64,000 nt of DNA from Planctomycetia bacterium (GTDB taxonomy: Bacteria; Planctomycetota; UBA8108; UBA1146): assembly GCA_012269595.1 (NCBI GenBank), contig JAAXJX010000005.1:143472-207471 (forward strand), given 5' to 3'. The notes beneath the pieces were generated by a model. That model searched no databases. It was not told where the DNA came from and was given only the letters and a program-made list of their open reading frames with translations. Below, one piece after another: positions 2,956 through 20,211 of the stretch; the stretch's first letter is position 1; each line of letters opens with the position of its first letter. The translations under genes and the position numbers were made by a program.

Positions 2956-4779
2956 CTAGATTTCGAGATCAAAGTTCAGGTGGAACCCCGCTTCGTCCAT
3001 GCGGAAGTTCTGGTTGTAGTACTGGAAGAACTCTTCGACGCTGAAGATGTTCGGCTGGTCCTGCTCCGGGTCCGGACCGATTTCGGTGAAGGGGGCTGCC
3101 GGAGCTGCGCCTCCACTGAAGAGGTAACTCAGGGTGTAGATCACGTCTCCAATGTCATGATTGCCGTCTGCGTTGGCGTCCGCAGCATTTGCGGGAACCG
3201 ATTCGGGTCCGCTGCTGAAGAGTTTGGACAGGCTGGCGATGGCGTCAGCGACATTGATCTCCTGATCACGGGTGAAATCACCCCTGCGGAACCAGTCCCA
3301 GGGGAAGGGAACTGGAACGAGCCCGGGACAAATCTGCCTTTTGACCGTATCGGGGGTGACGTCCACGATTTCGTGGGCGTTGACCAGAGTGACATTCACA
3401 CTCTCCCAGTCCGTATCTCTCATCGGATCCTGGGGAGTTGACCGGTCGATGTTCAGTGAAAGAACAGGGCAACCGGGAAGGGTTCCGTCATCTTTGGTTC
3501 TGACCAGATATTCGTCCGCCGGACCCTGGCACCACGTCGTCGTAACTCCGCTGGCGTAAAGGGTACCGTCGTACAACTCGTGAACATCCGTGAGGATCTC
3601 AACGTTGTTCGAACCGTATCCGTAGAAGAAGACAATGTTGCCATTGGGTTCGACACGCAGAACCGCACCATCGCGATCAAAGGCGCCGCGACCGGCAAGA
3701 ATGAACTCGCCATTATTGGTTTCCCGGATATCCCCATGGGAAATGAATCCGTGGTAGCGATCCTGCTGAAGGAGAATCAGTGAAGCGGGAGTCAAAGTGA
3801 AGATCTGCGTTGAGAGCGGGGCACCGGTCGCTTCCTTGACGTGGCTGACCACTTTTACCAGGCCATTTGAGGCCAGCTCGATTCCGCGACCCTTGGAGTC
3901 GGCGAAGGTGGGGCCGTAGATTCCACTTTTGAGGACATTGCCACCGGGGTCTGTGCGCACGACGAGAGTTTCTGCGGAACCGGGGACGCCAACCTGACGG
4001 GTTCCACCTGTGATCAGGTAACCGTCGGGGACAAACTCCCCGGTTTGGGGGTCCTCCATGGCAGGAATGGCAACGATATCGTCAAAGCCGGCCATGGAGC
4101 CGATACCGAAGCCGTTTGTGAGATAACGGAGGTCGTGATAGAGACGCATGTAGTTGAGATTCAGGTTGGGCTGGGTATTCAGGATGAAGGGTACGACTCC
4201 AATGTTTCCAGCAAACCGGAGTGATCCGACGACCACCAGATTCCCCTGGTGGTCCTGAATGATCTTGTTTCCGACTCCGGTAACGGGGGTGAGGTTCGCC
4301 CCTGCTATCGGCAGGTTTCCACCATAGGTTCTGGTTGCGAGAACATGGCCGTTGGTATCGGTGGTGATCACAAAAATGGGATCAGGAGTGGCTGTCTGAA
4401 TGTTGATTCCTGTAATGGCATAGCCGATCGAGCCTCCGGCGTCATCCACGACCTCGGTAACAGAAATCGGAAACTGATTGATGGATGGAAACTGACCGAT
4501 TTTTCGAGACCAGATGACGTTGCTGTCCTCGTCGACTTTGGACAGATAGATTTTGATCCCGAGTCCTGCATTGGTGACGTTGAAGTTCATGATGGGTGAA
4601 ACCGTGACGTAGTTGCCGTCGGTGGTGGGGATCATTTCCATCGACAACTCAAAGTTGTTCGTTCCAAAATTGGCCATATGTTCCTGGGCTGCAACTGGGC
4701 TGAAGGTCAACAGACCCACGAGCATGAGACTGAACAACTGTGCGGCGAGCACTTTGGGTTTGGGAGTGAGGGAGGACAT
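2956..4779 (-). CDS. Secreted repeat (beta-propeller-like) protein with a C-terminal dockerin-like module
   Basis: 607 aa. Signal peptide LFSLMLVGLLTFSPVAAQE. Recurrent blade-like motif (GYAITG...IFVITTDTNGHVLATRTYGG; GYLITGG...LVVRTDPGGNVLKSGIYG; ILAGRG...VLRVEPNGNIVFFYGYG). Dockerin-like module near the C-terminus. Confidence 0.6.
   Translation of the reverse strand: MSSLTPKPKVLAAQLFSLMLVGLLTFSPVAAQEHMANFGTNNFELSMEMIPTTDGNYVTVSPIMNFNVTNAGLGIKIYLSKVDEDSNVIWSRKIGQFPSINQFPISVTEVVDDAGGSIGYAITGINIQTATPDPIFVITTDTNGHVLATRTYGGNLPIAGANLTPVTGVGNKIIQDHQGNLVVVGSLRFAGNIGVVPFILNTQPNLNLNYMRLYHDLRYLTNGFGIGSMAGFDDIVAIPAMEDPQTGEFVPDGYLITGGTRQVGVPGSAETLVVRTDPGGNVLKSGIYGPTFADSKGRGIELASNGLVKVVSHVKEATGAPLSTQIFTLTPASLILLQQDRYHGFISHGDIRETNNGEFILAGRGAFDRDGAVLRVEPNGNIVFFYGYGSNNVEILTDVHELYDGTLYASGVTTTWCQGPADEYLVRTKDDGTLPGCPVLSLNIDRSTPQDPMRDTDWESVNVTLVNAHEIVDVTPDTVKRQICPGLVPVPFPWDWFRRGDFTRDQEINVADAIASLSKLFSSGPESVPANAADANADGNHDIGDVIYTLSYLFSGGAAPAAPFTEIGPDPEQDQPNIFSVEEFFQYYNQNFRMDEAGFHLNFDLEI
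3091..3291 (-). other. Dockerin-like duplicated EF-hand module (first loop degenerate)
   Basis: FRRGDFTRDQEINVADAIASLSKLFSSG...ADANADGNHDIGDVIYTLSYLFSGGAAP. Confidence 0.65.
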
Positions 4780-5378: not shown

Positions 5379-7592
5379 ATGGTCCTGATCATGATGACGA
5401 CACTGTATGCAATGGGACTCGATGGCGAAGCGGGTGGCGATCCCCAAACCGGTGGTTGGAGATTGAGGGACAGTCCGAGTGCCTATTTGAGAGAACATGC
5501 CGAAAATCCGGTGGAGTGGTGGACTTGGGGCGATGAGGCCTTTGAGGCCGCCCGCGATCTCGATCGCCCGGTGTTTTTGTCGATCGGATATTCCAGCTGC
5601 CACTGGTGTCATGTGATGCGCCGGGAGTCTTTTTCCGATCCTGCGATTGCCGCTTTTCTGAATGCACATTTCATTTCCATCAAGGTGGATCGTGAAGATC
5701 AACCCCATGTGGACGAGGTTTACATGGACGCGGTGAGAGCGATGACGGGTGGAGGGGGGTGGCCACTCTCTGCATTCCTGTTGCCGGATGGAAAGCCATT
5801 TTATGGAGGAACCTATTTTCCACCGCGTCAGCGCTTTAATCGGCCGGGTTTCCTGGAGCTGATCTCTTCGATTGAGAAAGCCTGGCGTGAAGACCGCGCC
5901 CGCATGCAGGAGAGTGCAGAGGGACTGATCGAACACCTTGAGGGCCGGGAAAACAGGGTTCATGAAGGTCAGACCCTGGACTTATTCCTCTCAGGAGGGG
6001 TCCAGACCGCCTCAGCTACCTACACCGCCAACCCCGCCGGTTTCGGACAGGCTCCGAGGTTTCCTGCACCGAGATTTCTGGAGTTTCTTGCCGGTGAAGG
6101 TTTGTCCACGCAGGACATACCCACCGTCAATCGCTCTCTGGCAGTGCTTCGGGAAATGGGGCGTGGAGGAATTCTTGACCAGGTAGGTGGCGGATTCCAT
6201 CGATACAGTGTGGATGCTGCATGGCAGGTCCCTCACTTCGAAAAGATGCTCTACAACCAGGGCTCATTGGCAGAAAGTTATCTTGAAGTGGGTCGAATGA
6301 CCGGTGAAAGCGACTTGCTGGAGACTGGAAAAAATGTACTCGATGCAATGTTGAAACAATTCCAACTGGAAGATGGCAGCTTTGCCAGTTCCTGGGATGC
6401 CGACTCCGGTGGGGTGGAAGGATCCTATTACGTCTGGACCCCTGATCAGGTGAATGAGTTGTTACCTGAGGGTGTTGCAAAGAACGTCTGCGAATATCTG
6501 GGGATTTCTGAAGACGGAAATTTTGAAGAACTGGAGGCCAGTGTTCCCAGGCAGGCGGTGACCTATGAAGCCCTCTCACAGTCCTCTGGTTTATCGGTGG
6601 GTGAGTTGCGGAAACAAGTCGAGGATGGAATTGCCCAACTCCTTGAAGCAAGAGAATCACGGGTTGCACCAAAACGGGATGACAAGGTTATTCTTGGCTG
6701 GAATGCGCTTTCGATTTCAGGGCTTGCCCGAGGCGCAGCGATTCTGGGAGAAACCCGGTTTGCGGATGAGGCCAGGAGAGCCCACTCTGCGGTGGCCGCA
6801 GCGATGGTCACAAAAGACGGCTTTCTCCGGCGAGTCGATCACTTTGTCGAATCAGATGGAAGCCACAGCAGAATCGCAGGAAACGCGGCCACCCTTCAGG
6901 ATGCTGCGCTCTGGGTGAAATGCTGCCTTGATTTGTACGAAGCGACCTTCGATTCCCAATTCCTTCAATCAGCAGAGGAGGCGGTGAATCTTGTTCAACA
7001 AGAGTTTGGTCTCCTCGAAGAAGGTCATGGATTCTATGAAGCCCCCAACAGTATCCAACTCGTGGTCGATCGACGTCGTGACTACTTTGATGGGGCATTG
7101 CCCTCCGGGAATGCGACGATGGCGCGCAATCTTTTGCGTATGTATGAACTCACCGGAAATGCGGACCATGAAGAAACGGCCCTCCATTTGGTGACAGCCT
7201 CGTTGGAGCGAGTGGGTCCCTACCCAATGGGTGCGGCAGAGTTGTTGCTGGCCGTTCAATCTGTTTCCAGGGGGACACCGGTGGTGGCTATCGTAGGAGA
7301 TCCCGACTTGGCAGAAACCCGGGAGATGATCCGCGCTGCCCGCAATTGTCGGGTACCCCAAGTGGTGATCGCCTTCCGATCCGACATGAATGGCGATTCG
7401 GATAGCGGAGTCGTTCCGGTGTTGAAGGGGAGAAATTCGAAGGAAGGCAAACCGCTGGCATATTTGTGCATCGATCAGGTCTGCGAAGTTCCTTTTGAAA
7501 ATGTGGGGGAATTGACCCTGCGACTCTCCGAATTGGAAAAACGCTCAGGGTCCCAGTCGGCACAATCCAGCGGGAAAGAGTCTGGCGAATGA
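5379..7592 (+). CDS. Thioredoxin-domain protein, YyaL/DUF255 family (N-acylglucosamine 2-epimerase-like fold)
   Basis: SAYLREHAENPVEWWTWGDEAFEAARDLDRPVFLSIGYSSCHWCHVMRRESF...ISIKVDREDQPHVDEVYM is the family signature with the CxxC. The start could also be one of the ATGs at 5391-5412. Confidence 0.85.
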   Translation: MVLIMMTTLYAMGLDGEAGGDPQTGGWRLRDSPSAYLREHAENPVEWWTWGDEAFEAARDLDRPVFLSIGYSSCHWCHVMRRESFSDPAIAAFLNAHFISIKVDREDQPHVDEVYMDAVRAMTGGGGWPLSAFLLPDGKPFYGGTYFPPRQRFNRPGFLELISSIEKAWREDRARMQESAEGLIEHLEGRENRVHEGQTLDLFLSGGVQTASATYTANPAGFGQAPRFPAPRFLEFLAGEGLSTQDIPTVNRSLAVLREMGRGGILDQVGGGFHRYSVDAAWQVPHFEKMLYNQGSLAESYLEVGRMTGESDLLETGKNVLDAMLKQFQLEDGSFASSWDADSGGVEGSYYVWTPDQVNELLPEGVAKNVCEYLGISEDGNFEELEASVPRQAVTYEALSQSSGLSVGELRKQVEDGIAQLLEARESRVAPKRDDKVILGWNALSISGLARGAAILGETRFADEARRAHSAVAAAMVTKDGFLRRVDHFVESDGSHSRIAGNAATLQDAALWVKCCLDLYEATFDSQFLQSAEEAVNLVQQEFGLLEEGHGFYEAPNSIQLVVDRRRDYFDGALPSGNATMARNLLRMYELTGNADHEETALHLVTASLERVGPYPMGAAELLLAVQSVSRGTPVVAIVGDPDLAETREMIRAARNCRVPQVVIAFRSDMNGDSDSGVVPVLKGRNSKEGKPLAYLCIDQVCEVPFENVGELTLRLSELEKRSGSQSAQSSGKESGE

Positions 7593-8074
7593 GTGAGGCT
7601 CAGGGTCAAGGACGACACAAGGCGAGTGTCCGCATTGTCGTCGATGCGGACGGTTGTCCCGTGAAGGACGAAGTTGCGAAAGTGGCCAAGAGGCTGGATC
7701 TGCCGGTGATTTTTGTTGCCAATCGATCGATGCGCATCCCTCAAGGGAAGGGATTTCGATTGGAAGTGGTTCCTGAGTTGTTTGACGCCGCTGACGACTG
7801 GATCGCTGAAAACTGTGATTCCCGAACAGTGGTTGTTTGCTGTGATATTCCCCTTGCCTCCCGTTGTGTTGCGGCAGGAGCAAACGTCGTTGATCCACGG
7901 GGGCGAATTCTGGATGAGGAATCGGTGGGGGAGGCGTTGGCCCGAAGGGATCTCTCGACCCACCTCCGGGACCTGGGATTACCCACAAAAGGGCCGGCCC
8001 CGTTTACTCCGCGGGATCGTTCCAGTTTTCTGCAGGCGATGGATCGGGTCTTGCAGCCCTTGCTTCGCGATTAG
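7589..8074 (+). CDS. YaiI/YqxD family protein (DUF188, UPF0178)
   Basis: IVVDADGCPVKDEV...VIFVAN...DAADDWIAENCDSRTVVVCCDIPLASRCV. ATGA overlap with the upstream stop. Confidence 0.75.
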   Translation: MSEAQGQGRHKASVRIVVDADGCPVKDEVAKVAKRLDLPVIFVANRSMRIPQGKGFRLEVVPELFDAADDWIAENCDSRTVVVCCDIPLASRCVAAGANVVDPRGRILDEESVGEALARRDLSTHLRDLGLPTKGPAPFTPRDRSSFLQAMDRVLQPLLRD

Positions 8075-9093
8075 CAACCCTGGTGAGGGATCAGGCACTC
8101 CAGTGGGTCCGTGGTGGTGTCTTCTCCACAGGTGCTGTGAGGATCGGCAGGAGGAGCTCCTCCTGTAAACAGATATCCCAGTAACAGAACCGCATCCGCA
8201 ATATCGACCACTCCATTGTCGTCAATATCACTGCTGTCCATACAGCCCGGCTCTGCGCCACCGGTAAAGAGGTATCCCAGCATGTTGATGGAATCGCTGA
8301 GATCGATGGCGCCGTCACCGCCGACGTCTCCGCGTCTGAACGGAGTTCCTGACAGGTCTGGATATACCAGTTCACAGGAAACAAAGGACAGTGAAAACTC
8401 AACACTGAATGCATCGAGAACACCGTCTCCATCGAGATCCGTGTCGACCACGATTCCCACAAACTCGAGTACCTGGGTCATGGTGTCGTAGTTGAAAGGA
8501 AAACCGTCAAAAGGAAATGGGGCGGGGATGGCATCGAACAGTTCTGCGGGAATCGCAGTGGGAATCCCTGGTGTGACCGCCGCAGATCCACCCGGTTCGA
8601 TGGTCAGATCCAGGGTGACTCCCGGAAGGGAGATTCCACCCGGTCCCTGAAGATCTGCAGGGCCTGCGCTCAGTTCTCCACCGACGATGGAGCCAGATTC
8701 AAAGAGGACCAATGGTTGTCCATTGTCATCGACACTTTCGGGAGTGACTTCAAACAGATTGTTGCCACTGAAGTTGTTGGTTTCATCTCCGTCGACGTCC
8801 ACCCCGAGAACGGAGGCCACAGAGATGGCGTCATCGTTCTGCATCTGAGGGTCATCCAGCTCGCGGATCTCAAGGAGATTGAATTGGGGACTGGCCCCAA
8901 TCTGGCTCTGGAGTATGGGGTCAAGAAGTGCGGAGGCGGGCTCCAGTGCTCCCCCTGTGATACTGATTCCCGAGTTCACAAACGCGTCCTCGATCGGCTC
9001 ACCGGAATGAACCACCGGAAAAACACAGAGGAGCAGGAGAAGGCAAGAAAATGCAGAGGGCAGTTTGTTGCGCACGGGGTTTCCAATCTTCAA
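8071..9093 (-). CDS. Secreted protein of unknown function with a C-terminal dockerin-like module and Cys tail
   Basis: The ORF is open to the ATG at 9228. That start puts about 50 non-signal residues before the signal peptide and leaves only 30 bp to the divergent gene. TTG 9093 (MKIGNPVRNKLPSAFSCLLLLLCVFPVVHSG) or GTG 9075 gives a proper signal peptide. Start uncertain. Confidence 0.6.
   Translation of the reverse strand: MKIGNPVRNKLPSAFSCLLLLLCVFPVVHSGEPIEDAFVNSGISITGGALEPASALLDPILQSQIGASPQFNLLEIRELDDPQMQNDDAISVASVLGVDVDGDETNNFSGNNLFEVTPESVDDNGQPLVLFESGSIVGGELSAGPADLQGPGGISLPGVTLDLTIEPGGSAAVTPGIPTAIPAELFDAIPAPFPFDGFPFNYDTMTQVLEFVGIVVDTDLDGDGVLDAFSVEFSLSFVSCELVYPDLSGTPFRRGDVGGDGAIDLSDSINMLGYLFTGGAEPGCMDSSDIDDNGVVDIADAVLLLGYLFTGGAPPADPHSTCGEDTTTDPLECLIPHQGC
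8074..8340 (-). other. Dockerin-like duplicated EF-hand module plus Cys tail
   Basis: FRRGDVGGDGAIDLSDSINMLGYLFTGGAEPGCMDSSDIDDNGVVDIADAVLLLGYLFTGGAPPADPHSTCGEDTTTDPLECLIPHQGC-stop. Confidence 0.75.
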
Positions 9094-9258: not shown

Positions 9259-11952
9259 GTGGCAGAACCACGTTCACTTATCCGACTTCTTTTGACTCTG
9301 ATCCTGTTCTCGCTGATCGGACTGAGGGGCCCAGTGGCTCAATCTGCTGATATTCCCTTCGTCAGGGGAGACGCCAACGTCGATGGCTCCGTCAATCTCT
9401 CCGATGGAATCTGGCTCCTTCAGCATCTGTTTCAATCAGGGCCCGGTGGAGACTGCTTTGCAGCAAGAGACTTCAATGCGGACGGCACCGTGGACCTTGC
9501 GGATGCCTTGTCGATTATCCAGTTTCAATTATTGGATGGAGCGGCGCCCAGGCATCCCTATCCCCATTGCGGAGACTCCGCCATCGGAGATTGTCAAAGC
9601 TATCCCGTATGCCCGGAAGTTTCTGACGTAACGGTTAACCGTGACGAATTTGGAGTCTGGCATATCGAGGGTGGAACACTTTTCGAACTGTATGAGGCCT
9701 TTGGTTACGAAGTCGCTGTCGATCGATTGTGGCAGATGGAATATTACCGCCGACTTTGTACAGGAACTCTCTCTGAAATTTATGGGCCAGATCAAATCTC
9801 AACTGACATCAGTATTCGCATCCTGGGTTACTCAGATGAAGAGTACATGGAGGGATATCAGGGAATCTCAGAGAGAGCTCAGGAATTGGTGCAGGGATAT
9901 CTCGCAGGAATCAATCGTCGCATCTCTGAAATCGACCAGGACTCCTCACTCCTTCCCTATGAGTTTGTCGAGTTCGGTTTTTCTCCTGCTCCATGGACCG
10001 TCATTGACATGATGGCACTCCAGGTGACCCTGCTCAGAAATTTCGATTCGGAAGCGCTTTCAACTCACCAACTGAATAACGCAGTACTGTTGGCAGAGCT
10101 TCAGGAAAGTCATCCTGAGGATGGCCTGGCGATGTTCAACGATCTTCGTTGGTTGGATGATCCGGATGCCCCGACGATGATTCCACCTTCTGGTGGAGCC
10201 TCCGGTTTCCTTCCCCAGACAACTTCTCTCCCTGTGCCTCAGGCAGGGCAGTACCAGTTGGACAACCTTCGAGCCTTGCGAGATGGTGTTCACGACATTT
10301 TTGAGGGGACGCGCGAGCGTATCTCGAATATTGGTACACCTCCGAGAATGGGCAGTTACGCATGGGTCGTCAGTGGCGATCTGACCGATACCGGATTGCC
10401 GATGATCTATGCGGGACCACAGATGGGATTCACGGCTCCCGGTCTGGTGATAGAGGGCTCTTTGCGAGGGGCTGGAATCGATGTATCCGGAATGGCTCTG
10501 GCGGGTTTGCCGGGGATCATCATCGGCCGGACCCCCCGTCATGCGTGGTCCGGTCAGGTTGCTCATGCGCATACCGTGGATATCTACCTTGAGGAAGTAG
10601 AGGATATTTTTCTCCATCGCACTGAGATGATTCCTCTGGGGAATGACCAATTTCTGAACTTGCCGATTTACCGCAGTGTCCACGGTCCCATCGTATCGCC
10701 CATCATTCTCAGCACCGAGAACCTTGAGGGGCCGGTGGCAGCCTGGAAGTATTCTCATTGGAAGAAGGAATTGGCGACAGTGGACGTCAACCTCGATTAC
10801 GTCCTTGCCCGCAATATGGATGATTTTGCTGATGCAATGGACCGCTTCTGCGTAAGCCTTCATGTCTGCTATGCCGATCGGCGCGGCAATGTGGGCTACT
10901 GGATGTCCGGTCTGGATCCGGTTCGGACAGAGGGGGCAGATCCACGCCTTCCACAGTTGGGGGATGGCTCGATGGAGTGGACTGACCCTGTGACCTACAA
11001 GGAGCGAATCACGGTCGAAAACCCTGAACGCGGTTGGATCGCTGGTTGGAACAACAAGGCCGCTGAAGGTGAGGCGGGTGGTGCGAGCCCTGGTCACGCA
11101 TATGGTCGATTCCACAGGGCGCATGCGATGCAAGATCGAATGGAAGATGCTGTGGCAAATGGACCCGTCAGCTATGAATTCGTTCGAGATCTCGCACTGG
11201 AAGTCAGTGCCACCGATTGTTGCAATTTGGGGAACAAGGGCGGAAACCGCTGGTTTTTTGTCGATCAATTTTTCACGAGTTCGGTCGAGGCGGATCTCAA
11301 TCCGGATCGATTGGCTGCCCTGGAACTCCTGGAAAGTTGGGACGGCTATTTTGTCGAGGGTGGTCCAGAGGGTTGGATCGAAAATACCGTCAATGCTGAT
11401 GCCTGGGTTCTTCAGGAAAACTGGATCAACAGGATGATCGAACTGGTGTTTGAAGATGAACTCAATACCGAGACCCTCGGTTGGAATAATCAGGACAGAA
11501 ATTTGCTGTTCAATGTTCTGCTGCGAGCCTTGCCGGGAAATCAGCCGCAGTTGGCCAATCAAATTAATTGGTTCGAAGATCGTGGGGCTGGGTTCAAGCC
11601 GACAGATCCTGCTGAGTTGGCAGTTCTCGCTTTGGATCTCACGTTGACAGAGTTGGGACCGAGACCCTGGAATCAACCCCGAGCGACCATCGACTATGTG
11701 GCTGAAAGCAGTCTGGGTTTGGTCTGGAGTGCTCCCTGGCTGAACAGGTCTACCTATGCCCAGGTTGTTGAAATGGGTTCGGAGGGACCGGTGAGAATTG
11801 AATCGATGATTCCACTCGGTCAATCCGGCGATGTTCGCGTTGGACCATCCGGTGAGCCGGTTTTCGATGAGCAATACTTTGGGTTTACCGAAGTTTTTGA
11901 CGGATTCCTTCACCGTCCTTTCCCACTCTTTACCGGTGAAACATCCGATTGA
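9259..11952 (+). CDS. Penicillin/AHL acylase family Ntn hydrolase (peptidase S45) with an N-terminal dockerin-like module
   Basis: The ORF track opens at 8716, but that part is antisense to the previous gene. The GTG at 9259 has GGGAGGAG 7 nt upstream and gives signal peptide LIRLLLTLILFSLIGLRGPVAQSA. Acylase motifs: GVWHIEG...AVDRLWQME (alpha chain) and PRMG-SYAWVVSG (candidate beta-chain N-terminal Ser, codon at 10354). Confidence 0.8.
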   Translation: MAEPRSLIRLLLTLILFSLIGLRGPVAQSADIPFVRGDANVDGSVNLSDGIWLLQHLFQSGPGGDCFAARDFNADGTVDLADALSIIQFQLLDGAAPRHPYPHCGDSAIGDCQSYPVCPEVSDVTVNRDEFGVWHIEGGTLFELYEAFGYEVAVDRLWQMEYYRRLCTGTLSEIYGPDQISTDISIRILGYSDEEYMEGYQGISERAQELVQGYLAGINRRISEIDQDSSLLPYEFVEFGFSPAPWTVIDMMALQVTLLRNFDSEALSTHQLNNAVLLAELQESHPEDGLAMFNDLRWLDDPDAPTMIPPSGGASGFLPQTTSLPVPQAGQYQLDNLRALRDGVHDIFEGTRERISNIGTPPRMGSYAWVVSGDLTDTGLPMIYAGPQMGFTAPGLVIEGSLRGAGIDVSGMALAGLPGIIIGRTPRHAWSGQVAHAHTVDIYLEEVEDIFLHRTEMIPLGNDQFLNLPIYRSVHGPIVSPIILSTENLEGPVAAWKYSHWKKELATVDVNLDYVLARNMDDFADAMDRFCVSLHVCYADRRGNVGYWMSGLDPVRTEGADPRLPQLGDGSMEWTDPVTYKERITVENPERGWIAGWNNKAAEGEAGGASPGHAYGRFHRAHAMQDRMEDAVANGPVSYEFVRDLALEVSATDCCNLGNKGGNRWFFVDQFFTSSVEADLNPDRLAALELLESWDGYFVEGGPEGWIENTVNADAWVLQENWINRMIELVFEDELNTETLGWNNQDRNLLFNVLLRALPGNQPQLANQINWFEDRGAGFKPTDPAELAVLALDLTLTELGPRPWNQPRATIDYVAESSLGLVWSAPWLNRSTYAQVVEMGSEGPVRIESMIPLGQSGDVRVGPSGEPVFDEQYFGFTEVFDGFLHRPFPLFTGETSD
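9358..9615 (+). other. Dockerin-like duplicated EF-hand module plus Cys segment, in N-terminal position
   Basis: FVRGDANVDGSVNLSDGIWLLQHLFQSGPGGDCFAARDFNADGTVDLADALSIIQFQLLDGAAPRHPYPHCGDSAIGDCQSYPVCP. Confidence 0.75.
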
Positions 11953-14423: not shown

Positions 14424-14591
14424 TCCCCGCTGTTTCAAAATGGGTCGGAAATTTCCGGTACTTGTTTTTGGTCCCCAAATGGGGTGAACTCGCCTTTTTT
14501 CGTACTTCCGGGATCTGATTCTGGTCCCTGATTCGTTTCCATTGCCAAGAAGGCTTGCGACTTTCCCCTTTGAGGATCATTCTCCTTGAGA

Positions 14592-14675: not shown

Positions 14676-14702
14676 CACTTTTCCTGGAAGAAGGGAGACT
14701 TC

Positions 14703-15512
14703 ATGTCCCGATTCGGAAATCTTCGGTCGACGGTGTGCATCGCCGCTGGCCTGCTCATTCTTTTTCTTGCCGGCTGTCAAGCCGGAGGTGCGGGAACCCT
14801 GCGTCTTCGGGGAGAGAACTGGTCTCCCAGTCCCGGTGGCGCCATTCGGGCTTCCGACCTGGGATCTGCAGGTGACCTAATCGATCTCGAGGGAGATCTC
14901 GGATTGGGGGAGGAAGAATCCCTCTGGGTCTATGCAGTGGAGAGTGATTTGGGATTGGGAACTGTTGAGGCGACGAGCATCGACTTCACCAGTTCGGGAA
15001 CCAACCTGCTTGCCGGAACTCTCGACTTCGGTGGAGAAATTTTTGAAGCGGGCAGCATTTCCAGTGACCTCAACCTTGAGTTGACGACCATACGCAACAA
15101 AGGTGCTCTCCTGGGCATGGGACCTGTGGGGTTGAAGTATCTATGGGGTGCTGACCATCTGGTTCTTGACTCCACCATCTCCGGATCGGTGGGAGGAACC
15201 GAGACTTCAGTGACCGAAAGCATCGATGAATGGGTTCCGACGATTGGTCTCGGCGCTTCAGTGGGAATCCCCATTGGAAGTGACTGGGGGCTTGAACTGG
15301 ACGCCGAGGTAGCAGGATTGTGGATCAGTTACGGTGATATCGACGGAACCTATCAGGGAACAACCCTGCGTGCAGGCTTGAGACAGGGATCAGGAATGCT
15401 GATCGGTGTGGGTCACAGGTCTCTGATCATTGATATCGAGGATGATGGTTCAGGAACTTCTGCGGATATTGACCTCGGTGGAACCTACCTGTTCCTCGAA
15501 TGGGCCATTTGA
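14703..15512 (+). CDS. Lipoprotein, possibly an outer-membrane beta-barrel type
   Basis: The ATG at 14703 gives MSRFGNLRSTVCIAAGLLILFLAGC (LAGC lipobox). The upstream part of the 14586 ORF reads through the tRNA. Gly/Ser/Thr-rich alternating pattern. Function unknown. Confidence 0.55.
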   Translation: MSRFGNLRSTVCIAAGLLILFLAGCQAGGAGTLRLRGENWSPSPGGAIRASDLGSAGDLIDLEGDLGLGEEESLWVYAVESDLGLGTVEATSIDFTSSGTNLLAGTLDFGGEIFEAGSISSDLNLELTTIRNKGALLGMGPVGLKYLWGADHLVLDSTISGSVGGTETSVTESIDEWVPTIGLGASVGIPIGSDWGLELDAEVAGLWISYGDIDGTYQGTTLRAGLRQGSGMLIGVGHRSLIIDIEDDGSGTSADIDLGGTYLFLEWAI

Positions 15513-15577: not shown

Positions 15578-15592
15578 AGATGAATCCCGTCT

Positions 15593-17347
15593 TCAGGGGC
15601 AGCTGACAGCTGCTCCGCAATCAAGACCATCTGCAGTCGGGTCTGGTCCGCATGTCTCAGAGCCGGGCGCGGGCATCGCAGTACCGGAGGAGAAGAGGAA
15701 GGACAGGGTAAAGACCGCGTCTCCAATATCGATGGCGCCATCGTCATTGGAGTCACTGGCATCGAAGCATTCGGGCAATCCGACGCCACCAAAGAGTGCG
15801 GACAGAAGAGAGACCGCATCGCTGATATCGACGGCGCCGTCGAGGTTCCCGTCTCCTCTGCGGAAGAAGGGGTCTTCACAGGCGTCAAGGATTCCATTGC
15901 TGTTGGAATCTCCGTTCTGGGTCAGAATCTGAACCAGATCCCAGGTGCCGTTATTGTCGCAATCTTCCGGAGTCGCCTCATAGACTTGCTCAAGGCCCGA
16001 AAGATCGAATGCATCGACATCCCCATCCTGATCAAGATCGTGCAGTGCACAGGGAGAGTCTGCATTGAAACTGCCCGGTGCATCTCCGGTCCAGCAATCG
16101 ATAAAGCCGGGGAGATCTGCTTCGTTGAGGAAGTTGTTTCCATCCGTGTCGTACTCCCTGCGTCCCAGCGAATCCAGGAATGCGACGACCTTGTCCTGCT
16201 CACTCTTGTCGAGATTGTTCCACGCCTGTTGTGAGGCAAAAGCGTCGCCGTAATGCCAGTTGACGGCATCATTGATTCCCTGATAGGGATCCTGAACGAG
16301 GACACGTCCGTCATGGAGAAGTTGTCCCCGAATTCTGAGACCCCAGAGTGGGGGGGTTTTCATTTCGGTTTCCAGAGCATCTCCCTGGGCAATTCCGTCT
16401 CCCAGTGCGCCCATGTCATGAAGCAGGAAGTCACTGTAGGGACGGAAGGTGACGCCGGACATACCAGCTTCGGGGCTGGTTCCCGTTGTGAACTCAGGGT
16501 GGTGACAGGTCGCACAGCCGATGTCGGTGAAAATCGTTTCACCGGACATGCCACTCCGAGGTGTTTGGGGAGGAGCTGCCAGGAACATCTGGAAGTCCGT
16601 GATCCTTTGCAGGTAGGGGACACCGTTATCCATCGGCTCTTCCGGGTCTGCGACGGAATCGCAGATCGGAAGCAGTGTCGTGTCGCCATTGGGAGCATTC
16701 TCGGCGGCGAGAACACTGTTGGTGATGCCCATTTCCATCAGGGTGGCGTCACCACTGAAGGACATCAGTGTGGCAAGCTGGGATTTCCAACCAAAGCGGC
16801 CGACCGCCAGAGGCGCTGCGGGCGACTCCAGAAGCGGTACCCAGTGAACCATTCCGCCATTGGATTGAAGCGCGACGATATCTGCTCCGTCGACCGCTTC
16901 GATCAAACCCGCTCCGAGGATGGAGGGGGTAATTCGATCCGCGATGATCGTGGCATTGGCGGGAACGATTTCGAGACACTCTGTGGAGATGGCATTGGCC
17001 TGAAGAAGGGATCCACCCTCTGCATCCAGAGGGTCAAAAGGGGCGCCTTTGTCTGCAGCACCAAATCGGGTCACCGTAATGGGACTGGTTCCCCCGATGG
17101 GAAGGGCATGGCATGAGGCACAGGAGTCCTGATTGAATCCAGGGCCGAGGCCCTCTGCTTCACTGAAGGTTCTCAGAAACTGCTCTTTCCCCAGAAAGAA
17201 TCTCTCCAACTGGTCACTGTTCAGAAAGGGGAGAGGATCGCCTGCTTTGGGTTGAGGAGACTGGGCCAAGGCCGAAGTCCCCATCGTCAGGCAACCGAAA
17301 ACCACACAAATGAACAGACCTGCGGTGATATGGATGGATCTCAACAT
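15593..17347 (-). CDS. Di-haem oxidoreductase/peroxidase-like protein (DUF1111 family) fused to EF-hand-like and dockerin-like modules
   Basis: Signal peptide. Two CxxCH motifs (CASCH at aa 76-80, CATCH at aa 278-282). GRFGWKSQ is typical of the DUF1111 family. C-terminal about 185 aa are Asp-rich Ca-loop repeats plus the dockerin module. Confidence 0.8.
   Translation of the reverse strand: MLRSIHITAGLFICVVFGCLTMGTSALAQSPQPKAGDPLPFLNSDQLERFFLGKEQFLRTFSEAEGLGPGFNQDSCASCHALPIGGTSPITVTRFGAADKGAPFDPLDAEGGSLLQANAISTECLEIVPANATIIADRITPSILGAGLIEAVDGADIVALQSNGGMVHWVPLLESPAAPLAVGRFGWKSQLATLMSFSGDATLMEMGITNSVLAAENAPNGDTTLLPICDSVADPEEPMDNGVPYLQRITDFQMFLAAPPQTPRSGMSGETIFTDIGCATCHHPEFTTGTSPEAGMSGVTFRPYSDFLLHDMGALGDGIAQGDALETEMKTPPLWGLRIRGQLLHDGRVLVQDPYQGINDAVNWHYGDAFASQQAWNNLDKSEQDKVVAFLDSLGRREYDTDGNNFLNEADLPGFIDCWTGDAPGSFNADSPCALHDLDQDGDVDAFDLSGLEQVYEATPEDCDNNGTWDLVQILTQNGDSNSNGILDACEDPFFRRGDGNLDGAVDISDAVSLLSALFGGVGLPECFDASDSNDDGAIDIGDAVFTLSFLFSSGTAMPAPGSETCGPDPTADGLDCGAAVSCP
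15596..15865 (-). other. Dockerin-like duplicated EF-hand module plus Cys tail
   Basis: FRRGDGNLDGAVDISDAVSLLSALFGGVGLPECFDASDSNDDGAIDIGDAVFTLSFLFSSGTAMPAPGSETCGPDPTADGLDCGAAVSCP-stop. Confidence 0.8.
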
Positions 17348-17643: not shown

Positions 17644-20211
17644 TTAAGGACAACCCACGCCACAGTCGAGACTGTCCGCGGTGGGATCCTCACCACAATT
17701 AATCGGCTCGGGAAGCGAGGCTCCGCCGAACAGGAAACTCAGGGCTGCGACGGCGTCGGCAATGTCGATGTTTCCATCGTCATTGGCGTCGGCGGCATCC
17801 TGACAGTTCACTGGTGTCGAGTTGAACAACAGCTGAAGCATGCTGACCGGATCACTGATGTCACGGCTGCCGTCCAGATTGACATCACCCCTTTGGAAGG
17901 TGACGGCTCCGGTTCCGTTGCAACTGGCCTCTTCGATGGTGAAGTCGTCAACTCCAGCCTCGCAGAGGGAGTTGTTCGGTGCATCCGACGCAGTGAATCG
18001 AACCTGAATGTTGGCACTCGGGGTCACGATATCGCTGACCGTGAACTCAAAGCTTTGCCAGGCACTACCGGTACCCAGTGCGCCACCCACTACCAGAGCG
18101 GTGTTCCAGGTTGCCCCACCGTCATTGGAAACGGAGACGACAAAGTCGTCGAGTTGGGACGGATCCGATTCAATGTTGGCGTACCAGAGATTGAAGCGAA
18201 TCGTTGCATCAGTTCCGGCGAGATTCAGGCTCGGACTGATCAGGTGAGCCGGTCCACCGTCGAGGTCCGCACTGCCTGCAGCTCCACCAACAGCACCGTT
18301 ACCAGTGATCCAGCAGAAGTTGCCACTGGCCGGATCTTCGGGCTGGGACTGGATTCCGCCACTGACCGTTCCATTCGGGTTGGCCAGTTCCCATGCACCC
18401 GCGGTCACGGAAGCATCGGTGACGACACTCCAACCACCGACAAGGCCGGTTTCAAAGTCGTCGACAATCTGGCTGAGGCTGTCCGCCACCTGCAAAGTGG
18501 TTGTGGCGGTCGTCTCGGTGACGCCATTGGTCAGCGAAGCACTGACGAACCACGAAATGGTGGAAGTGGCGGTGTTGCCGTCCAGCACACCCTCGTAGTT
18601 GAGTCCTCCGGTTGAGGCCATGGCAGTTTCCACAAAGGCGCCGCCGTCTGCAGAGGTGTGCAATCTGACGGTGGCCTGATCGAGAATTCCTCCACCAAAT
18701 GCTTCAACGCTGACGCTGACCGGAACGGTGTCCGTGCAGGGTACAGAGGTGGGGTTGCTGGGTGAGGCGACGATGTTGAGCCCGATGGGCGCTTCATTCA
18801 TCCACACCTCGGTGCCAGTGCAGGTACCGATGACCATGTCGAGCCAGCCATCACCGTTGATATCGAAGACTGCGACGTCATGGACTCCGTTGGGGCGCCA
18901 GAGAGCACCGTCATTTTCCTGACGGAGGGTCACGTTGGGTGCATCTCCCATGTTGTGGTAGATGTGCATGCGACGGTTACAGCCTGCGATGTCGACGTCA
19001 ACGTCGGTGATGATGACATCGTTCCAGCCGTCATTGTCGAGGTCGGCGATGACCGAGTTGCCGCCAAAGCCATCGTCGCCACCTGCACCGGTACCACCGG
19101 CAAAGTCGTAAAGGAAACGATTGAAGTTGGCGAGTCCGCTGGCGTCATTGCCGTTGTTCAAAAGGTAAGAATCCGCACCGTCGTCGGTGACCACGATGTC
19201 GTTGGCACCGTCATTGTTGAGGTCACCCACCGTGATGTGGTAGGGGGCCATGCTCGGGAAGCTTTCCTTGTGAGCACTGAAGGATCCGATGGCACCATTG
19301 TTGTTGTAAGCCACTCCAACATACTGCGGCGGGTTCAGGGCGGTGTCCTTGATGATGTCCAGGTGGCCATCGCCATTCATGTCGCGGATTGCCGAAGCCA
19401 TTCCAAAGGCAGACTGCTGGAAGGGGAATGGGCTTCCTCCAACGACGATGCTGCCGCTGAAGACCAAAGCCGTTCCGTCGGTAAAGAAACCGTTACCATC
19501 GTTGAGAAGCAGGCGGTCGTTGAAGTCGAGGGTTTGTGCCCCTCCACTGTCGTAGTCACCCATGTACAGATCGAGATCGCCGTCCTCGTCGATGTCACCG
19601 ATGTCCACGGAGCAGAATCGGGGAGCGTGAGGGAAGCCGTTGGCGGCATTGCCCTCGAACTGTTCCATTCTTGCATCCTCGTGGCGGAATCCACCCCATG
19701 TGCCTCCAACGAGGCCAAGGTTCATGTAGATTCGGGGGTAGGAAATGTGCTTGGGCTGGCCATCTGCAAGGGTGATCACGGTCACCATATCGAGCCAACC
19801 GTCATTGTTGAAATCACCCAGCATGACATCACGGTCATTGGTGGGGGTCAGGAAGCCATTGTCTCCCGGGACGTCGGAAGCACTGGCATAAAGACTGGTT
19901 CTGTCGACAAGAACACCGTTCTCATTCATGAAAAGAACGTTGGTCTTGAAGGCACCCACACCACCACTGGTGAAGGGCTGTTTGCGAACGCAGATCAGAT
20001 CGATGTCTCCATCGTTGTCGACGTCACCCCAAATGTAGTCCTTTTCCTCAGGGTCTGAGGTGGAGATCTGGGCATTGGCCGAAATGCGTGTGGCAGTTTC
20101 ATTGGTGAACTGCACCCAGTCCGGCTGGCCGAAGACAGGATTGCTGTTAAAGGCTCCTGGCAACAGCATCAACGCTGCAAACGTAATGGAGAAAAGCGGC
20201 AAAGTGCGCAT
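17644..20211 (-). CDS. Secreted FG-GAP/VCBS-repeat (integrin-alpha-like propeller) protein with a MAM/jelly-roll-like domain and C-terminal dockerin-like module
   Basis: 855 aa with a signal peptide. Seven Ca-loop repeats (DVDNDGDIDL, GDFNNDGWLDM, GDIDEDGDLDL, RDMNGDGHLDI, GDLNNDGANDI, ADLDNDGWNDV, FDINGDGWLDM). DDFETGLVGGWSV...VSVSNDGGATWN...AGVDDFTIEE resembles MAM / choice-of-anchor-J domains. Confidence 0.8.
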   Translation of the reverse strand: MRTLPLFSITFAALMLLPGAFNSNPVFGQPDWVQFTNETATRISANAQISTSDPEEKDYIWGDVDNDGDIDLICVRKQPFTSGGVGAFKTNVLFMNENGVLVDRTSLYASASDVPGDNGFLTPTNDRDVMLGDFNNDGWLDMVTVITLADGQPKHISYPRIYMNLGLVGGTWGGFRHEDARMEQFEGNAANGFPHAPRFCSVDIGDIDEDGDLDLYMGDYDSGGAQTLDFNDRLLLNDGNGFFTDGTALVFSGSIVVGGSPFPFQQSAFGMASAIRDMNGDGHLDIIKDTALNPPQYVGVAYNNNGAIGSFSAHKESFPSMAPYHITVGDLNNDGANDIVVTDDGADSYLLNNGNDASGLANFNRFLYDFAGGTGAGGDDGFGGNSVIADLDNDGWNDVIITDVDVDIAGCNRRMHIYHNMGDAPNVTLRQENDGALWRPNGVHDVAVFDINGDGWLDMVIGTCTGTEVWMNEAPIGLNIVASPSNPTSVPCTDTVPVSVSVEAFGGGILDQATVRLHTSADGGAFVETAMASTGGLNYEGVLDGNTATSTISWFVSASLTNGVTETTATTTLQVADSLSQIVDDFETGLVGGWSVVTDASVTAGAWELANPNGTVSGGIQSQPEDPASGNFCWITGNGAVGGAAGSADLDGGPAHLISPSLNLAGTDATIRFNLWYANIESDPSQLDDFVVSVSNDGGATWNTALVVGGALGTGSAWQSFEFTVSDIVTPSANIQVRFTASDAPNNSLCEAGVDDFTIEEASCNGTGAVTFQRGDVNLDGSRDISDPVSMLQLLFNSTPVNCQDAADANDDGNIDIADAVAALSFLFGGASLPEPINCGEDPTADSLDCGVGCP
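17647..17898 (-). other. Dockerin-like duplicated EF-hand module plus Cys tail
   Basis: FQRGDVNLDGSRDISDPVSMLQLLFNSTPVNCQDAADANDDGNIDIADAVAALSFLFGGASLPEPINCGEDPTADSLDCGVGCP-stop. Confidence 0.8.

What the first reader, a model, noticed from the sequence alone, without database searches (positions are those of the whole stretch)
2956..20211. One dockerin-like F-x-RGD duplicated EF-hand module tags five unrelated secreted proteins within 17 kb
Five signal-peptide proteins carry the same roughly 65-aa module. Their catalytic or structural parts are unrelated: a propeller-like repeat protein, a 385-aa unknown, a penicillin/AHL-acylase-family hydrolase, a di-haem DUF1111 oxidoreductase and an FG-GAP/MAM-like protein. 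Every copy starts with F-x-R-G-D (FRRGD, FRRGD, FVRGD, FRRGD, FQRGD). This is followed by x3-DG-x2-[DN]-[IL]-SD, a helix ending in LF-x-GG, then a second loop such as D-x-NDDG-x-[IV]DI-[AG]D-AV and a helix ending in [FY]LF-[GS]G. The arrangement of two Ca-binding loop-helix segments matches the type I dockerin architecture. No cohesin-bearing scaffoldin and no glycoside hydrolase is visible in this window. The binding partner and purpose of the tag are therefore open. It may be a dedicated surface-anchoring or sorting system for an oxidative/hydrolytic secretome. The invariant RGD is part of the first Ca loop, but it is also an adhesion motif.
Basis: partly seen in the sequence, partly recalled or inferred. 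Interest (0 to 1): 0.75.

Follow-up and report, generated by a model that had tools for sequence, protein, structure and literature searches.

The report
Dockerin tags on secreted planctomycete proteins
Five neighbouring secreted proteins of an uncultured marine planctomycete carry the same calcium-binding dockerin module, a known protein-docking tag whose likely cohesin partner lies in the same species' genome outside this window, so this is a non-cellulose version of a known assembly system.

Summary
Exactly five F-x-RGD modules occur in the 64-kb window, all within 17 kb, on five signal-peptide proteins with unrelated bodies.

The module is a dockerin:
- Pfam Dockerin_1 is the best family for all five, though only one passes the curated cut-off.
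- A profile of the five hits solved dockerins best.
- An AlphaFold model (pLDDT 91.7) superposes on dockerin chains.

It belongs to a very large, mainly Planctomycetota subfamily: 23,790 protein clusters at E<=1e-10. This subfamily adds an F-x-R prefix and a Pro/Cys tail, probably disulfide-clasped.

In this subfamily the module is often fused to divergent cohesin domains. Three MAGs of the window's species each encode a 449-aa signal peptide-cohesin-FN3-FN3-dockerin protein. It lies outside the window, apparently on the same 475-kb contig as the cluster.

The most likely function is Ca-dependent docking of exoenzymes onto a cohesin scaffold. Binding itself is untested, and no cell anchor was found. 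The RGD is R plus the canonical dockerin G-D, not a credible adhesion motif.

Cohesin-dockerin systems outside cellulosomes, including a proposed "planctosome" in Planctomycetes, are already published. This is a new member of a known kind. Interest is moderate.

The parts
2956..4779 (-). p1: 607-aa secreted protein of unknown fold. The dockerin module is near the C-terminus and is followed by a tail of about 29 aa.
   Evidence: ORF and signal peptide. No Pfam or PDB sequence match for the body. NCBI MAG copies are annotated 'hypothetical'.
3043..3300 (-). Dockerin module of p1 (FRRGD...). It is the Cys-less variant with a degenerate first Ca loop (T at position 3, Q at position 6).
   Evidence: HMM 127.5 bits. 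Pfam Dockerin_1 20.3 bits, below the cut-off of 22.9. Alignment.
8071..9075 (-). p2: 334-aa secreted protein of unknown function with a C-terminal dockerin module.
   Evidence: Gene call of 334 aa in public contigs. GTG start and signal peptide VRNKLPSAFSCLLLLLCVFPVVHS. No family match.
8089..8346 (-). Dockerin module of p2 (FRRGD...), with 4 Cys.
   Evidence: HMM 131.8 bits. Dockerin_1 19.0 bits.
9259..11952 (+). p3: 897-aa penicillin/AHL-acylase-family Ntn hydrolase. The dockerin module is N-terminal, directly after the signal peptide.
   Evidence: PF01804 1.1e-96. Start and signal peptide.
9352..9615 (+). Dockerin module of p3 (FVRGD...), with 4 Cys.
   Evidence: HMM 131 bits. Dockerin_1 34.2 bits when scanned alone, above the cut-off of 22.9, and 22.6 bits in the full protein.
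15593..17347 (-). p4: 584-aa di-haem oxidoreductase (DHOR/DUF1111 family) with a C-terminal dockerin module.
   Evidence: PF06537 4e-35. The exact sequence is found in 82 blocks of marine assemblies.
15596..15871 (-). Dockerin module of p4 (FRRGD...), with 4 Cys. This is the copy that was modelled.
   Evidence: HMM 128.4 bits. AlphaFold pLDDT 91.7. The top 32 Foldseek PDB hits are all dockerins, with target-normalised TM 0.53-0.80.
17644..20211 (-). p5: 855-aa FG-GAP/VCBS-repeat protein with a C-terminal dockerin module.
   Evidence: PF13517 1.4e-23. NCBI copies are annotated VCBS/FG-GAP repeat protein.
17647..17904 (-). Dockerin module of p5 (FQRGD...), with 4 Cys.
   Evidence: HMM 126.2 bits. 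Dockerin_1 20.2 bits.

Best explanation
The five modules are dockerin domains of a Planctomycetota-typical subfamily. Each has two Ca-binding loop-helix repeats, preceded by F-x-R and followed by a Pro/Cys-rich tail. The tail is probably clasped back onto the inter-repeat linker by a disulfide.

After Sec export, each module most likely docks its carrier, in a Ca-dependent way, onto a cohesin domain encoded elsewhere in the genome. The five carriers are an acylase, a di-haem oxidoreductase, an FG-GAP protein and two proteins of unknown function.

The identified candidate partner is a conserved 449-aa protein with the architecture signal peptide-cohesin-FN3-FN3-dockerin. That protein ends in the same kind of dockerin. 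It could therefore chain with itself, or plug into a further cohesin not yet identified. Either way, exoenzymes would be held together or near the cell rather than lost to sea water.

Shown here: dockerin homology and predicted fold; cohesin homology and predicted fold of the partner; presence of both in the same species. Inferred: actual binding, its specificity, the disulfide pairing, and how the assembly is attached to the cell.
For: 1. **Dockerin identity.** Dockerin_1 is the best Pfam family for all five modules. The A1 profile hits solved dockerins best: 2y3n_B at 8.6e-7, 2mte and 1daq at 4e-5. The AlphaFold model has pLDDT 91.7. Its 32 best PDB matches are all dockerin chains, mostly at rmsd about 2-2.8 A. 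Ca-ligand positions 1, 3, 5, 9 and 12 carry D or N in 8 of 10 loops (sequence).
2. **Placement.** The module sits right after the signal peptide or at the extreme C-terminus. Of 135 strong copies in sampled genomes, 100 end within 15 aa of the C-terminus and 13 more within 16-60 aa. Of the other 22, most lie directly after a visible signal peptide.
3. **Fusion with cohesins.** In carriers from the 1.84-billion-protein library, modules alternate with domains of about 180 aa. Those domains hit Pfam Cohesin (46.2 and 28.3 bits, above the cut-off of 24.1). Their profile hits only cohesins at the top of the PDB list (3ul4_A at 5e-7). In 23 of 120 sampled loci, cohesin-like ORFs occur, and 26 of those 29 ORFs also carry an F-x-RGD dockerin, usually C-terminal.
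4. **Same species.** The Coh-FN3-FN3-Doc protein cluster contains MBA4684841 (H2076_07620), MFL2858785 (ACJ0DK_10335) and MGB1662372/1771102/1808933 (ACPHP7_02590). These are the MAG accession series and locus-tag prefixes that hold 98.8-99.0%-identical copies of p4, together with copies of p1, p5, UvrB and AccC from their >=90%-identity clusters. The gene lies on the 475,376-bp contig JBJLEH010000007.1. That exact length is also listed as the longest contig carrying the p4 copy.
5. **Cohesin fold of the partner.** AlphaFold gives pLDDT 85.9. The best Foldseek hit is the cohesin-FN3 module 2w1n. Single cohesins match at target-normalised TM 0.77-0.84. Orthologues pass the Pfam Cohesin cut-off (30.2 and 26.2 bits).
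Against: - No binding was tested or modelled. No multimer prediction was available.
- Only one cohesin domain is known so far, against at least six dockerins in this species.
- The cohesin protein shows no recognisable cell-anchoring domain.
- The window species' own cohesin scores only 18.0 bits on Pfam Cohesin, below the cut-off of 24.1.
- Four of the five modules fall below the Pfam Dockerin_1 cut-off.
- The first loops of p1 and p2 lack the position-3 Asn/Asp.
- Many non-cellulosomal dockerins in other organisms have no demonstrated partner.
- The whole genome could not be scanned.
Confidence: 0.65

Rival explanations
1. Orphan stabilising module. The domain is a Ca-loaded, disulfide-locked appendage that improves the folding, solubility or protease resistance of exported proteins in sea water. 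It has no dedicated protein partner.
For: Dockerins far outnumber the cohesins found here, at least 6 to 1 in this species. Even cysteine counts and a conserved tail suggest a self-contained clasp. Proteins made only of tandem modules exist.
Against: It does not explain the repeated fusion of the module with cohesin domains. It does not explain the conserved cohesin-dockerin gene in the same species. A stabiliser would not need to sit at a protein terminus on a linker.
Confidence: 0.14
2. C-terminal sorting or secretion signal. The module would be recognised by an export or surface-attachment machinery, in the manner of T9SS C-terminal domains or PEP-CTERM tags.
For: In the genome sample, 100 of 135 strong copies end within 15 residues of the C-terminus. 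Four of the five window copies are C-terminal.
Against: The p3 copy is N-terminal, directly after the signal peptide. Of the 135 sampled copies, 22 are N-terminal or internal, and many proteins carry 2-7 copies. There is no transmembrane segment or cleavage motif. The predicted fold is a dockerin.
Confidence: 0.07
3. The module binds a non-protein ligand of the cell envelope or of marine particles (polysaccharide, peptidoglycan, mineral Ca). It would anchor enzymes directly, without a cohesin.
For: No anchoring domain was found on the cohesin protein. The cargo spectrum is broad.
Against: The dockerin fold has no known carbohydrate-binding role (established knowledge of the family). Co-occurrence with cohesins points to protein-protein docking.
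Confidence: 0.1
4. RGD-mediated adhesion to eukaryotic integrin-like receptors.
For: R-G-D is nearly invariant in the subfamily: R in 118 of 119, G in 115 of 119, D in 116 of 119.
Against: G-D are the canonical first residues of the dockerin Ca loop, and the D is a Ca ligand. They align with K-G-D and G-D of solved cellulosomal dockerins. The motif lies within the folded domain. The organism is a free-living ocean planctomycete.
Confidence: 0.02

Closest known systems
Type I dockerin-cohesin pairs of clostridial and ruminococcal cellulosomes (Pfam PF00404 / PF00963; e.g. PDB 1ohz, 2ccl, 2vn5, 4uyp)
   Same: Duplicated 12-residue Ca loop plus helix. The predicted three-helix fold matches, mostly at about 2-2.8 A rmsd. 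The two repeats are near-symmetric. The module sits at a protein terminus behind a signal peptide. A cohesin of matching predicted fold is present in the genome.
   Different: The five window carriers are not glycoside hydrolases, and none ranks in the top 25 families in the family sample. No multi-cohesin scaffoldin with a CBM was seen. There is an extra F-x-R prefix and a roughly 25-aa Pro/Cys tail. Most copies fall below the Pfam cut-offs: 4 of 5 here, and only 20 of 92 are detected at 1e-4 in the sample. The host is an aerobic marine planctomycete.
'Planctosome' proposed for freshwater Planctomycetes (Nemodlikiaceae), Andrei et al. 2019, ISME J (PMC6461901)
   Same: Cohesin and dockerin modules in Planctomycetes with no link to cellulose. 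Adaptor proteins carry both a dockerin and a cohesin. The cargo is non-CAZyme. LTD-domain carriers also occur in my sample.
   Different: That model is bioinformatic, from a different lineage, with peptidase cargo and an LTD anchor protein. Here the cargo is an acylase, a di-haem oxidoreductase and an FG-GAP protein, and no anchor has been identified. I could not compare the sequences directly.
Non-cellulosomal cohesin-dockerin complexes of Clostridium perfringens GH84 toxins (PDB 2ozn, 2w1n)
   Same: A cohesin directly followed by an FN3 module. 2w1n is the best structural match of the partner protein. Cohesin-dockerin pairing is used to assemble secreted non-cellulolytic enzymes.
   Different: That system is Gram-positive and pathogen-associated, with glycosidase toxins. 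The 2ozn dockerin is only a weak structural match to this module (E 6.4).
Intramolecular clasp of the Ruminococcus flavefaciens ScaA dockerin (PMC3821032)
   Same: The idea that terminal extensions of a dockerin fold back to stabilise the module (title and abstract).
   Different: Here the clasp would be covalent, through disulfides, and is inferred only from cysteine co-occurrence.
NCBIfam NF041540 'GC-type dockerin domain-anchored protein'
   Same: A dockerin-derived terminal domain defined for annotation purposes.
   Different: Only p3 gives a trace hit (11.6 bits against a cut-off of 29; E 0.27). The other four give none. The modules are not members.

Membership tests
Dockerin (Pfam PF00404 Dockerin_1) | Two tandem segments, each a 12-residue Ca-binding loop followed by a helix. 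| tested here: met
   Alignments of the five copies and of 120 relatives show both loop-helix segments. DSSP of the model gives helices at 19-31, 39-42 and 52-63.
Dockerin (Pfam PF00404 Dockerin_1) | Asp/Asn at loop positions 1, 3, 5, 9 and 12. | tested here: met
   Met in 8 of 10 loops. Loop 1 of p1 has T at position 3, and loop 1 of p2 has G at position 3 (sequences).
Dockerin (Pfam PF00404 Dockerin_1) | Score at or above the curated Pfam cut-off (22.9 bits). | tested here: inconclusive
   Isolated modules score 34.2 (p3), 20.3, 20.2, 19.0 and 14.6 bits. Dockerin_1 is the top family for four of the five; for p4 EF-hand_7 ranks marginally higher (15.6 vs 14.6 bits, both below cut-off). Only p3 passes. 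A profile of the five reaches solved dockerins at 8.6e-7.
Dockerin (Pfam PF00404 Dockerin_1) | Dockerin three-dimensional fold. | tested here: met
   Predicted only. pLDDT is 91.7. The top 32 Foldseek PDB hits are all dockerins, with target-normalised TM 0.53-0.80 and rmsd 1.7-3.7 A.
Dockerin (Pfam PF00404 Dockerin_1) | Ca-dependent binding to a cohesin. | not testable with these tools
   This needs pull-down, ITC or multimer modelling.
Cohesin-dockerin system | A cohesin-bearing protein encoded by the same organism. | tested here: met
   It is absent from the window and its flanks. It is present in three conspecific MAGs: H2076_07620, ACJ0DK_10335 and ACPHP7_02590. Identity to the window's p4 in those MAGs is 98.8-99.0%.
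Cohesin (Pfam PF00963), for the candidate partner | Score at or above the curated cut-off (24.1 bits), and the cohesin beta-sandwich fold. | tested here: inconclusive
   The window-species protein P0369 scores 18.0 bits, below the cut-off. Orthologues P0354 and P0361 score 30.2 and 26.2 bits, above it. The predicted fold matches cohesins at target-normalised TM 0.77-0.84. My own planctomycete cohesin profile gives 80 bits, and that profile hits PDB cohesins at 5e-7.
Cellulosome | Dockerin-bearing glycoside hydrolases, plus a multi-cohesin scaffoldin with a carbohydrate-binding module. | tested here: not met
   None of the five carriers has a glycoside-hydrolase domain. None ranks among the top 25 families of 92 carriers. 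The partner has a single cohesin and no CBM.
C-terminal sorting domains (T9SS CTD, PEP-CTERM and similar) | Obligatory position at the extreme C-terminus, and recognition by a dedicated sorting machinery. | tested here: not met
   The p3 copy is N-terminal. Of 135 sampled copies, 22 are N-terminal or internal, and tandem arrays exist. No NCBIfam sorting-domain model hits.
Canonical EF-hand pair | Helix-loop-helix with an entering helix, scoring on EF-hand models. | tested here: not met
   EF-hand models give only sub-threshold hits: at most 15.6 bits against cut-offs of 25-30. For four of the five modules dockerin ranks above EF-hand; for p4 EF-hand_7 (15.6 bits, E 0.022) edges Dockerin_1 (14.6 bits, E 0.038), both below cut-off. 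In the PDB profile search dockerins rank highest overall, although one EF-hand protein (SCaMC-1, 4zcu_A, 1.1e-4) sits among the top dockerin hits and most calmodulin-like chains rank lower.
NCBIfam NF041540 GC-type dockerin | Score at or above 29 bits. | tested here: not met
   p3 scores 11.6 bits. There is no hit for the other four.

The most novel reading that the evidence does not exclude
Marine and other Planctomycetota may run a very large exoenzyme-tethering system that is mostly unannotated. Tens of thousands of secreted proteins would carry a disulfide-clasped F-x-RGD dockerin. The scaffold would be built from proteins that carry both divergent cohesins and the same dockerin (Coh-Doc, Doc-Coh-Coh-Doc, alternating arrays, poly-dockerins). 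The scaffold would therefore self-assemble into chains or a mesh around the cell, instead of hanging from one anchored scaffoldin. Pfam's models miss most of both partners.
Probability: 0.3. Interest if true: 0.7.

Novelty: new member of a known kind. Interest (0 to 1): 0.42.

Why it matters
If the docking model is right, an abundant open-ocean planctomycete keeps several exoenzymes physically tethered: an acyl-amide hydrolase, a di-haem oxidoreductase, FG-GAP proteins and others. That bears on how free-living bacteria avoid losing extracellular enzymes to diffusion.

The subfamily is very large. It has 23,790 clusters at E<=1e-10 in a 1.84-billion-protein library. Standard models detect it poorly, so dedicated dockerin and cohesin profiles for Planctomycetota would reannotate many 'hypothetical' secreted proteins.

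The short, disulfide-clasped module and its partner could also serve as an orthogonal protein-assembly pair for oxidising, saline conditions.

The concept itself is already in the literature: non-cellulosomal cohesin-dockerin systems, and the proposed 'planctosome'.

Tried and rejected
- **The search for related loci with the module alignment** failed: no stretch was conserved enough. I replaced it with a degenerate DNA pattern scan of genome contigs.
- **Peer et al. 2009** on non-cellulosomal cohesins and dockerins is not held in the library. It is cited only through Andrei et al.
- **The search for homologous proteins with the cohesin-domain profile** returned just 3 hits, because of the word index. 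A single-sequence query from a close relative (TMED53, locus L115) worked instead.
- **Cohesin in the window or flanks:** none. No inter.hmm hit at E<=10 in the window or at E<=1 in the flanks, and no coh.hmm hit better than E about 5 in the window or E<=1 in the flanks.
- **Bodies of p1, p2 and the C-terminal region of p5:** no PDB sequence relatives and no NCBIfam family. The labels 'propeller-like' and 'MAM-like' stay unverified.
- **Apparent absence of the DsbH-like thioredoxin gene** in some public contigs is a 100-N scaffold gap, not a deletion.
- **Pfam scan of ten cohesin-like ORFs from other genomes** gave no Cohesin hit at 1e-3. The cohesin assignment for that wider set therefore rests on my own profile. 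That profile is linked to Pfam and PDB cohesins through.
- **Direct confirmation of the shared contig:** the p4 copy could not be shown directly on the 475-kb NCBI contig that holds the cohesin gene, because that place was collapsed in the output.
Full report
**Source organism.** The window is 99.7-99.8% identical to long scaffolds from marine metagenome assemblies. The exact p4 protein occurs in 82 blocks of public assemblies, on contigs up to 359 kb. NCBI MAG copies of its proteins are labelled Planctomycetota. These are the accession series MBA468..., MFL285... and MGB..., with locus-tag prefixes including H2076_, ACPHP7_ and ACJ0DK_. Their p4 copies are 98.8-99.0% identical to the window's. 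'bacterium TMED181' and 'Planctomycetia bacterium TMED53' are congeners or close relatives. AccC is about 96% identical to both, and TMED181's p4 is 86% identical.

**Checking the observation.** An HMM built from the five modules scores them at 126-132 bits, and nothing else in the window exceeds about 4 bits. The 10-kb flanks on both sides hold no further copy. All five carriers lie within 17.3 kb of an 84-kb stretch. Each begins with a signal-peptide-like sequence. Their bodies are unrelated:
- Penicil_amidase, 1e-96.
- DHOR di-haem oxidoreductase, 4e-35.
- FG-GAP_3, 1e-23.
- Two proteins with no family match.

The copies are 34-58% identical to each other, so they are old, diverged modules.
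- The conserved unit is about 85 residues, because a tail belongs to it: P-x-P-x3-C-G-x-D-P-T-x-D-x-L-x-C.
- p1 has a degenerate first loop and no cysteines.
- p2 is 334 aa, not 385.
- The acylase's module is N-terminal.

**What the module is.** Pfam Dockerin_1 is the best-scoring family for four of the five isolated modules (for p4 EF-hand_7 edges it, 15.6 vs 14.6 bits). Only p3 passes the curated cut-off of 22.9 bits, at 34.2; the others score 14.6-20.3. A profile of the five finds solved dockerins first: 2y3n_B at 8.6e-7, and the CelS dockerin 2mte/1daq at 4e-5. One EF-hand protein (SCaMC-1, 1.1e-4) sits among the top hits; most calmodulin-like chains rank lower.

An AlphaFold model of the p4 module, built on 125 sequences, has pLDDT 91.7. 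Its 32 best PDB matches are all dockerin chains, with target-normalised TM 0.53-0.80, mostly at rmsd of about 2-2.8 A. Loop positions 1, 3, 5, 9 and 12 carry Asp or Asn in eight of ten loops.

The G-D of 'RGD' aligns with the K-G-D and G-D that open the first Ca loop in solved dockerins. The RGD is therefore R plus the canonical loop start, not an independent adhesion motif.

**The family.**
- A search of 1.84 billion representative proteins finds 44,981 clusters at E<=1e-3 and 23,790 at E<=1e-10. Many carry 2-14 matched stretches.
- The named close relatives are mostly marine Planctomycetota MAG proteins, a few already annotated 'dockerin type I repeat-containing'.
Of these, 83 are labelled Planctomycetota, and 77 of those hold a module of at least 50 bits.
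- Some MAGs labelled otherwise also hold strong copies. Firmicute dockerins score lower.
- The family consensus is F.RGDaN.DG..DisDai..L.yLF.GG..P.C.dAaDaNDDG..Di.DaiylL.yLF.GG..Pp.Pfp.CG.DPT.D.L.C.
- F and R are nearly invariant but lie outside the Pfam model.
- Cysteine counts per module are mostly even: 2 in 173, 4 in 186, 6 in 47. The commonest patterns are C36+C85, or C36+C74+C85 (plus, in the window's four Cys-containing copies, a terminal Cys).
- I infer a C36-C85 disulfide that clasps the tail to the inter-repeat linker, and a second C74-terminal Cys pair. This is inference, because no coordinates were available.
- Of 135 strong copies in the sample, 100 end within 15 residues of the C-terminus. 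Of the 22 N-terminal or internal ones, most sit directly behind a visible signal peptide.
- The cargo among 92 sampled carriers is a broad exoproteome: FG-GAP repeats, subtilases, di-haem peroxidases, DHOR, DUF1800, LTD, Ig-like domains, a nuclease and a cupredoxin. No glycoside hydrolase ranks in the top 25 families.
- Pfam sees the dockerin in only 20 of the 92 at 1e-4.

**The partner.** In the top library hits, modules often recur every 265-280 residues or so, separated by domains of about 180 aa. Those domains hit Pfam Cohesin: P0126 at 46.2 bits and P0147 at 28.3, above the cut-off of 24.1, with others just below. A profile of 20 such domains finds only cohesins at the top of the PDB list: 3ul4_A at 5e-7, then 1anu, 1ohz_A and 1aoh.

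In the genome sample, 23 of 120 loci contain cohesin-like ORFs. Of those 29 ORFs, 26 also carry an F-x-RGD dockerin, usually C-terminal. The architectures are SP-Coh(1-3)-Doc and Doc-Coh-Coh-Doc. Pfam misses most of these cohesins. That would explain why such proteins are annotated as hypothetical.

One such locus, L115, is from TMED53, a close relative of the window organism. Its SP-Coh-x-x-Doc protein has homologues at 52-82% identity. These include CBD41_03120 of TMED181, which carries a precomputed PF00963 hit.

The cluster of P0351 contains H2076_07620, ACJ0DK_10335 and ACPHP7_02590. The same MAG accession series hold the 99%-identical copies of the window's proteins. The gene lies at 55,334-56,683 of the 475,376-bp contig JBJLEH010000007.1. 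That contig length is also the longest listed for the p4 copy. The MFL accessions of the two proteins differ by 255. From this I infer the same contig, roughly 250-300 kb apart.

The gene sits in conserved housekeeping synteny across the genus: SecDF-YajC-Tgt-SpoIID-RuvB-MFS-LysM-radical SAM-[Coh-Doc]-RibBA.

An AlphaFold model of the 449-aa protein has pLDDT 85.9. It shows a cohesin beta-sandwich, two FN3-like domains and the dockerin. The best PDB match is the cohesin-FN3 construct 2w1n. Single cohesins match at target-normalised TM 0.77-0.84. On Pfam Cohesin the window-species copy scores 18.0 bits, below the cut-off. Orthologues score 30.2 and 26.2.

**Mechanism.** The best-supported reading is a non-cellulosomal cohesin-dockerin system. 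Sec-exported carriers would fold, load Ca2+ and form the tail disulfide(s). Their dockerins would then bind the cohesin of the Coh-FN3-FN3-Doc protein. The two repeats of each module are nearly symmetric, with a hydrophobic residue then a small residue at loop positions 10-11 in both. That is compatible with the dual binding mode known for type I dockerins. This last point is inference.

The cohesin protein ends in the same dockerin type, so it may form chains or plug into another cohesin. No anchor was identified. Binding, specificity and attachment are all untested. I give the docking model 0.65.

The rivals are:
- A partner-less stabilising module, 0.14.
- A module that binds a non-protein ligand, 0.10.
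- A sorting signal, 0.07. This is contradicted by N-terminal and tandem copies.
- RGD-mediated adhesion, 0.02.

**Comparison with what is known.** Dockerins and cohesins outside cellulosomes are established. For Planctomycetes specifically, Andrei et al. 2019 proposed a 'planctosome' built from cohesin/dockerin proteins with peptidase cargo, and the idea has been cited since. The C. perfringens GH84 system is the best-studied non-cellulosomal case, and it shares the cohesin-FN3 arrangement. The window's modules meet the structural and sequence definition of a dockerin, but mostly fall below Pfam's cut-off. They are not cellulosomal and not members of NCBIfam's GC-type dockerin family.

**Verdict.** The system is a new member of a known kind, with some subfamily-specific traits:
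- the F-x-R prefix;
- the Cys/Pro clasp;
- scaffold proteins that carry their own dockerin;
- very large numbers in Planctomycetota.

In the library I could search, I found no description of these traits. Interest is moderate.

Noticed in passing
window 13028-13600 (+) and about 13620-14423 (+): An ECF sigma factor (Sigma70_r2/r4_2) and a zf-HC2 anti-sigma factor sit in the middle of the five-gene dockerin cluster, between the acylase/aminopeptidase pair and p4/p5. They are a possible local regulator of this secretome island.
   Followed up: no
window 14592-14676 (+) and 23554-23627 (+): tRNA-Leu(TAA) and tRNA-Cys(GCA). The tRNA-Leu overlaps the 5' end of the mechanical ORF 14586-15512, so the real 269-aa gene of unknown function starts later. 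A 77-base stretch (window 23551-23627) containing the tRNA-Cys gene is 100% identical in a relative (L015) whose p5 orthologue is only 69% identical at the DNA level.
   Followed up: partly
window 11949-12902 (+): A putative lipoprotein aminopeptidase (PF10023 Aminopep; the N-terminus MKNCLGVLLLLVMLGC looks like a lipobox) lies directly downstream of the dockerin-tagged acylase. It is a secreted or anchored hydrolase in the same island but carries no dockerin.
   Followed up: no
proteins P0121, P0131, P0125, P0153, P0162 (representative library): Some proteins consist almost entirely of tandem F-x-RGD dockerins: 7 copies in 874 aa, and 4 copies in 386 aa. Multivalent dockerin-only proteins would cross-link cohesins. 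Their role is unexplained.
   Followed up: partly
proteins P0135, P0138-P0140, P0124, P0126, P0127; loci L037, L100, L119, L123: Regular alternating Doc-Coh-Doc-Coh-Doc proteins occur. L119 holds at least three tandem genes each encoding Coh(2-3)-Doc, followed by a further cohesin ORF cut off by the locus end. This suggests self-assembling scaffolds rather than one anchored scaffoldin.
   Followed up: partly
loci L062, L020, L030, L049, L119, L042; 92 carriers: Pfam's Cohesin model misses most planctomycete cohesin-like domains at 1e-3. Dockerin_1 detects only 20 of 92 carriers at 1e-4. This is an annotation blind spot for both halves of the system.
   Followed up: yes
window 34713-36680 (+) and about 36700-38823 (+): Two adjacent paralogous secreted proteins. 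Each has an N-terminal small beta domain, TPR repeats and a DUF1570 domain with an HExxH-like motif ('LAHEGTH'). DUF1570 is a family I recall as Planctomycetes-associated.
   Followed up: no
window 50567-55477 (-): A 1636-aa secreted protein with several PQQ/BamB-like beta-propellers, a TPR region and a weak CBM9-like C-terminal domain (E 2e-3, below the cut-off). It carries no dockerin.
   Followed up: no
L127 21361-21824 (left of the window, beyond the pstSCAB-phoU operon): Another FG-GAP_3 repeat protein begins about 9.6 kb upstream of the window start. It is cut off by the end of the locus, so it is unknown whether it also carries the module.
   Followed up: no
loci L011, L025, L031/L043/L045/L070/L081/L114, L102, L071: Strong F-x-RGD modules (73-98 bits) occur in MAGs labelled Parcubacteria, Proteobacteria, 'Bacillota MAG 7', Omnitrophota and Deltaproteobacteria. 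Either the family reaches beyond Planctomycetota, or these bins are mislabelled or contaminated.
   Followed up: no
L003 and L127 versus window 6932-7274: Public scaffolds carry a 100-N gap here. This makes the 737-aa DsbH-like thioredoxin gene look absent in their gene calls. It is an assembly artefact, not strain variation.
   Followed up: yes
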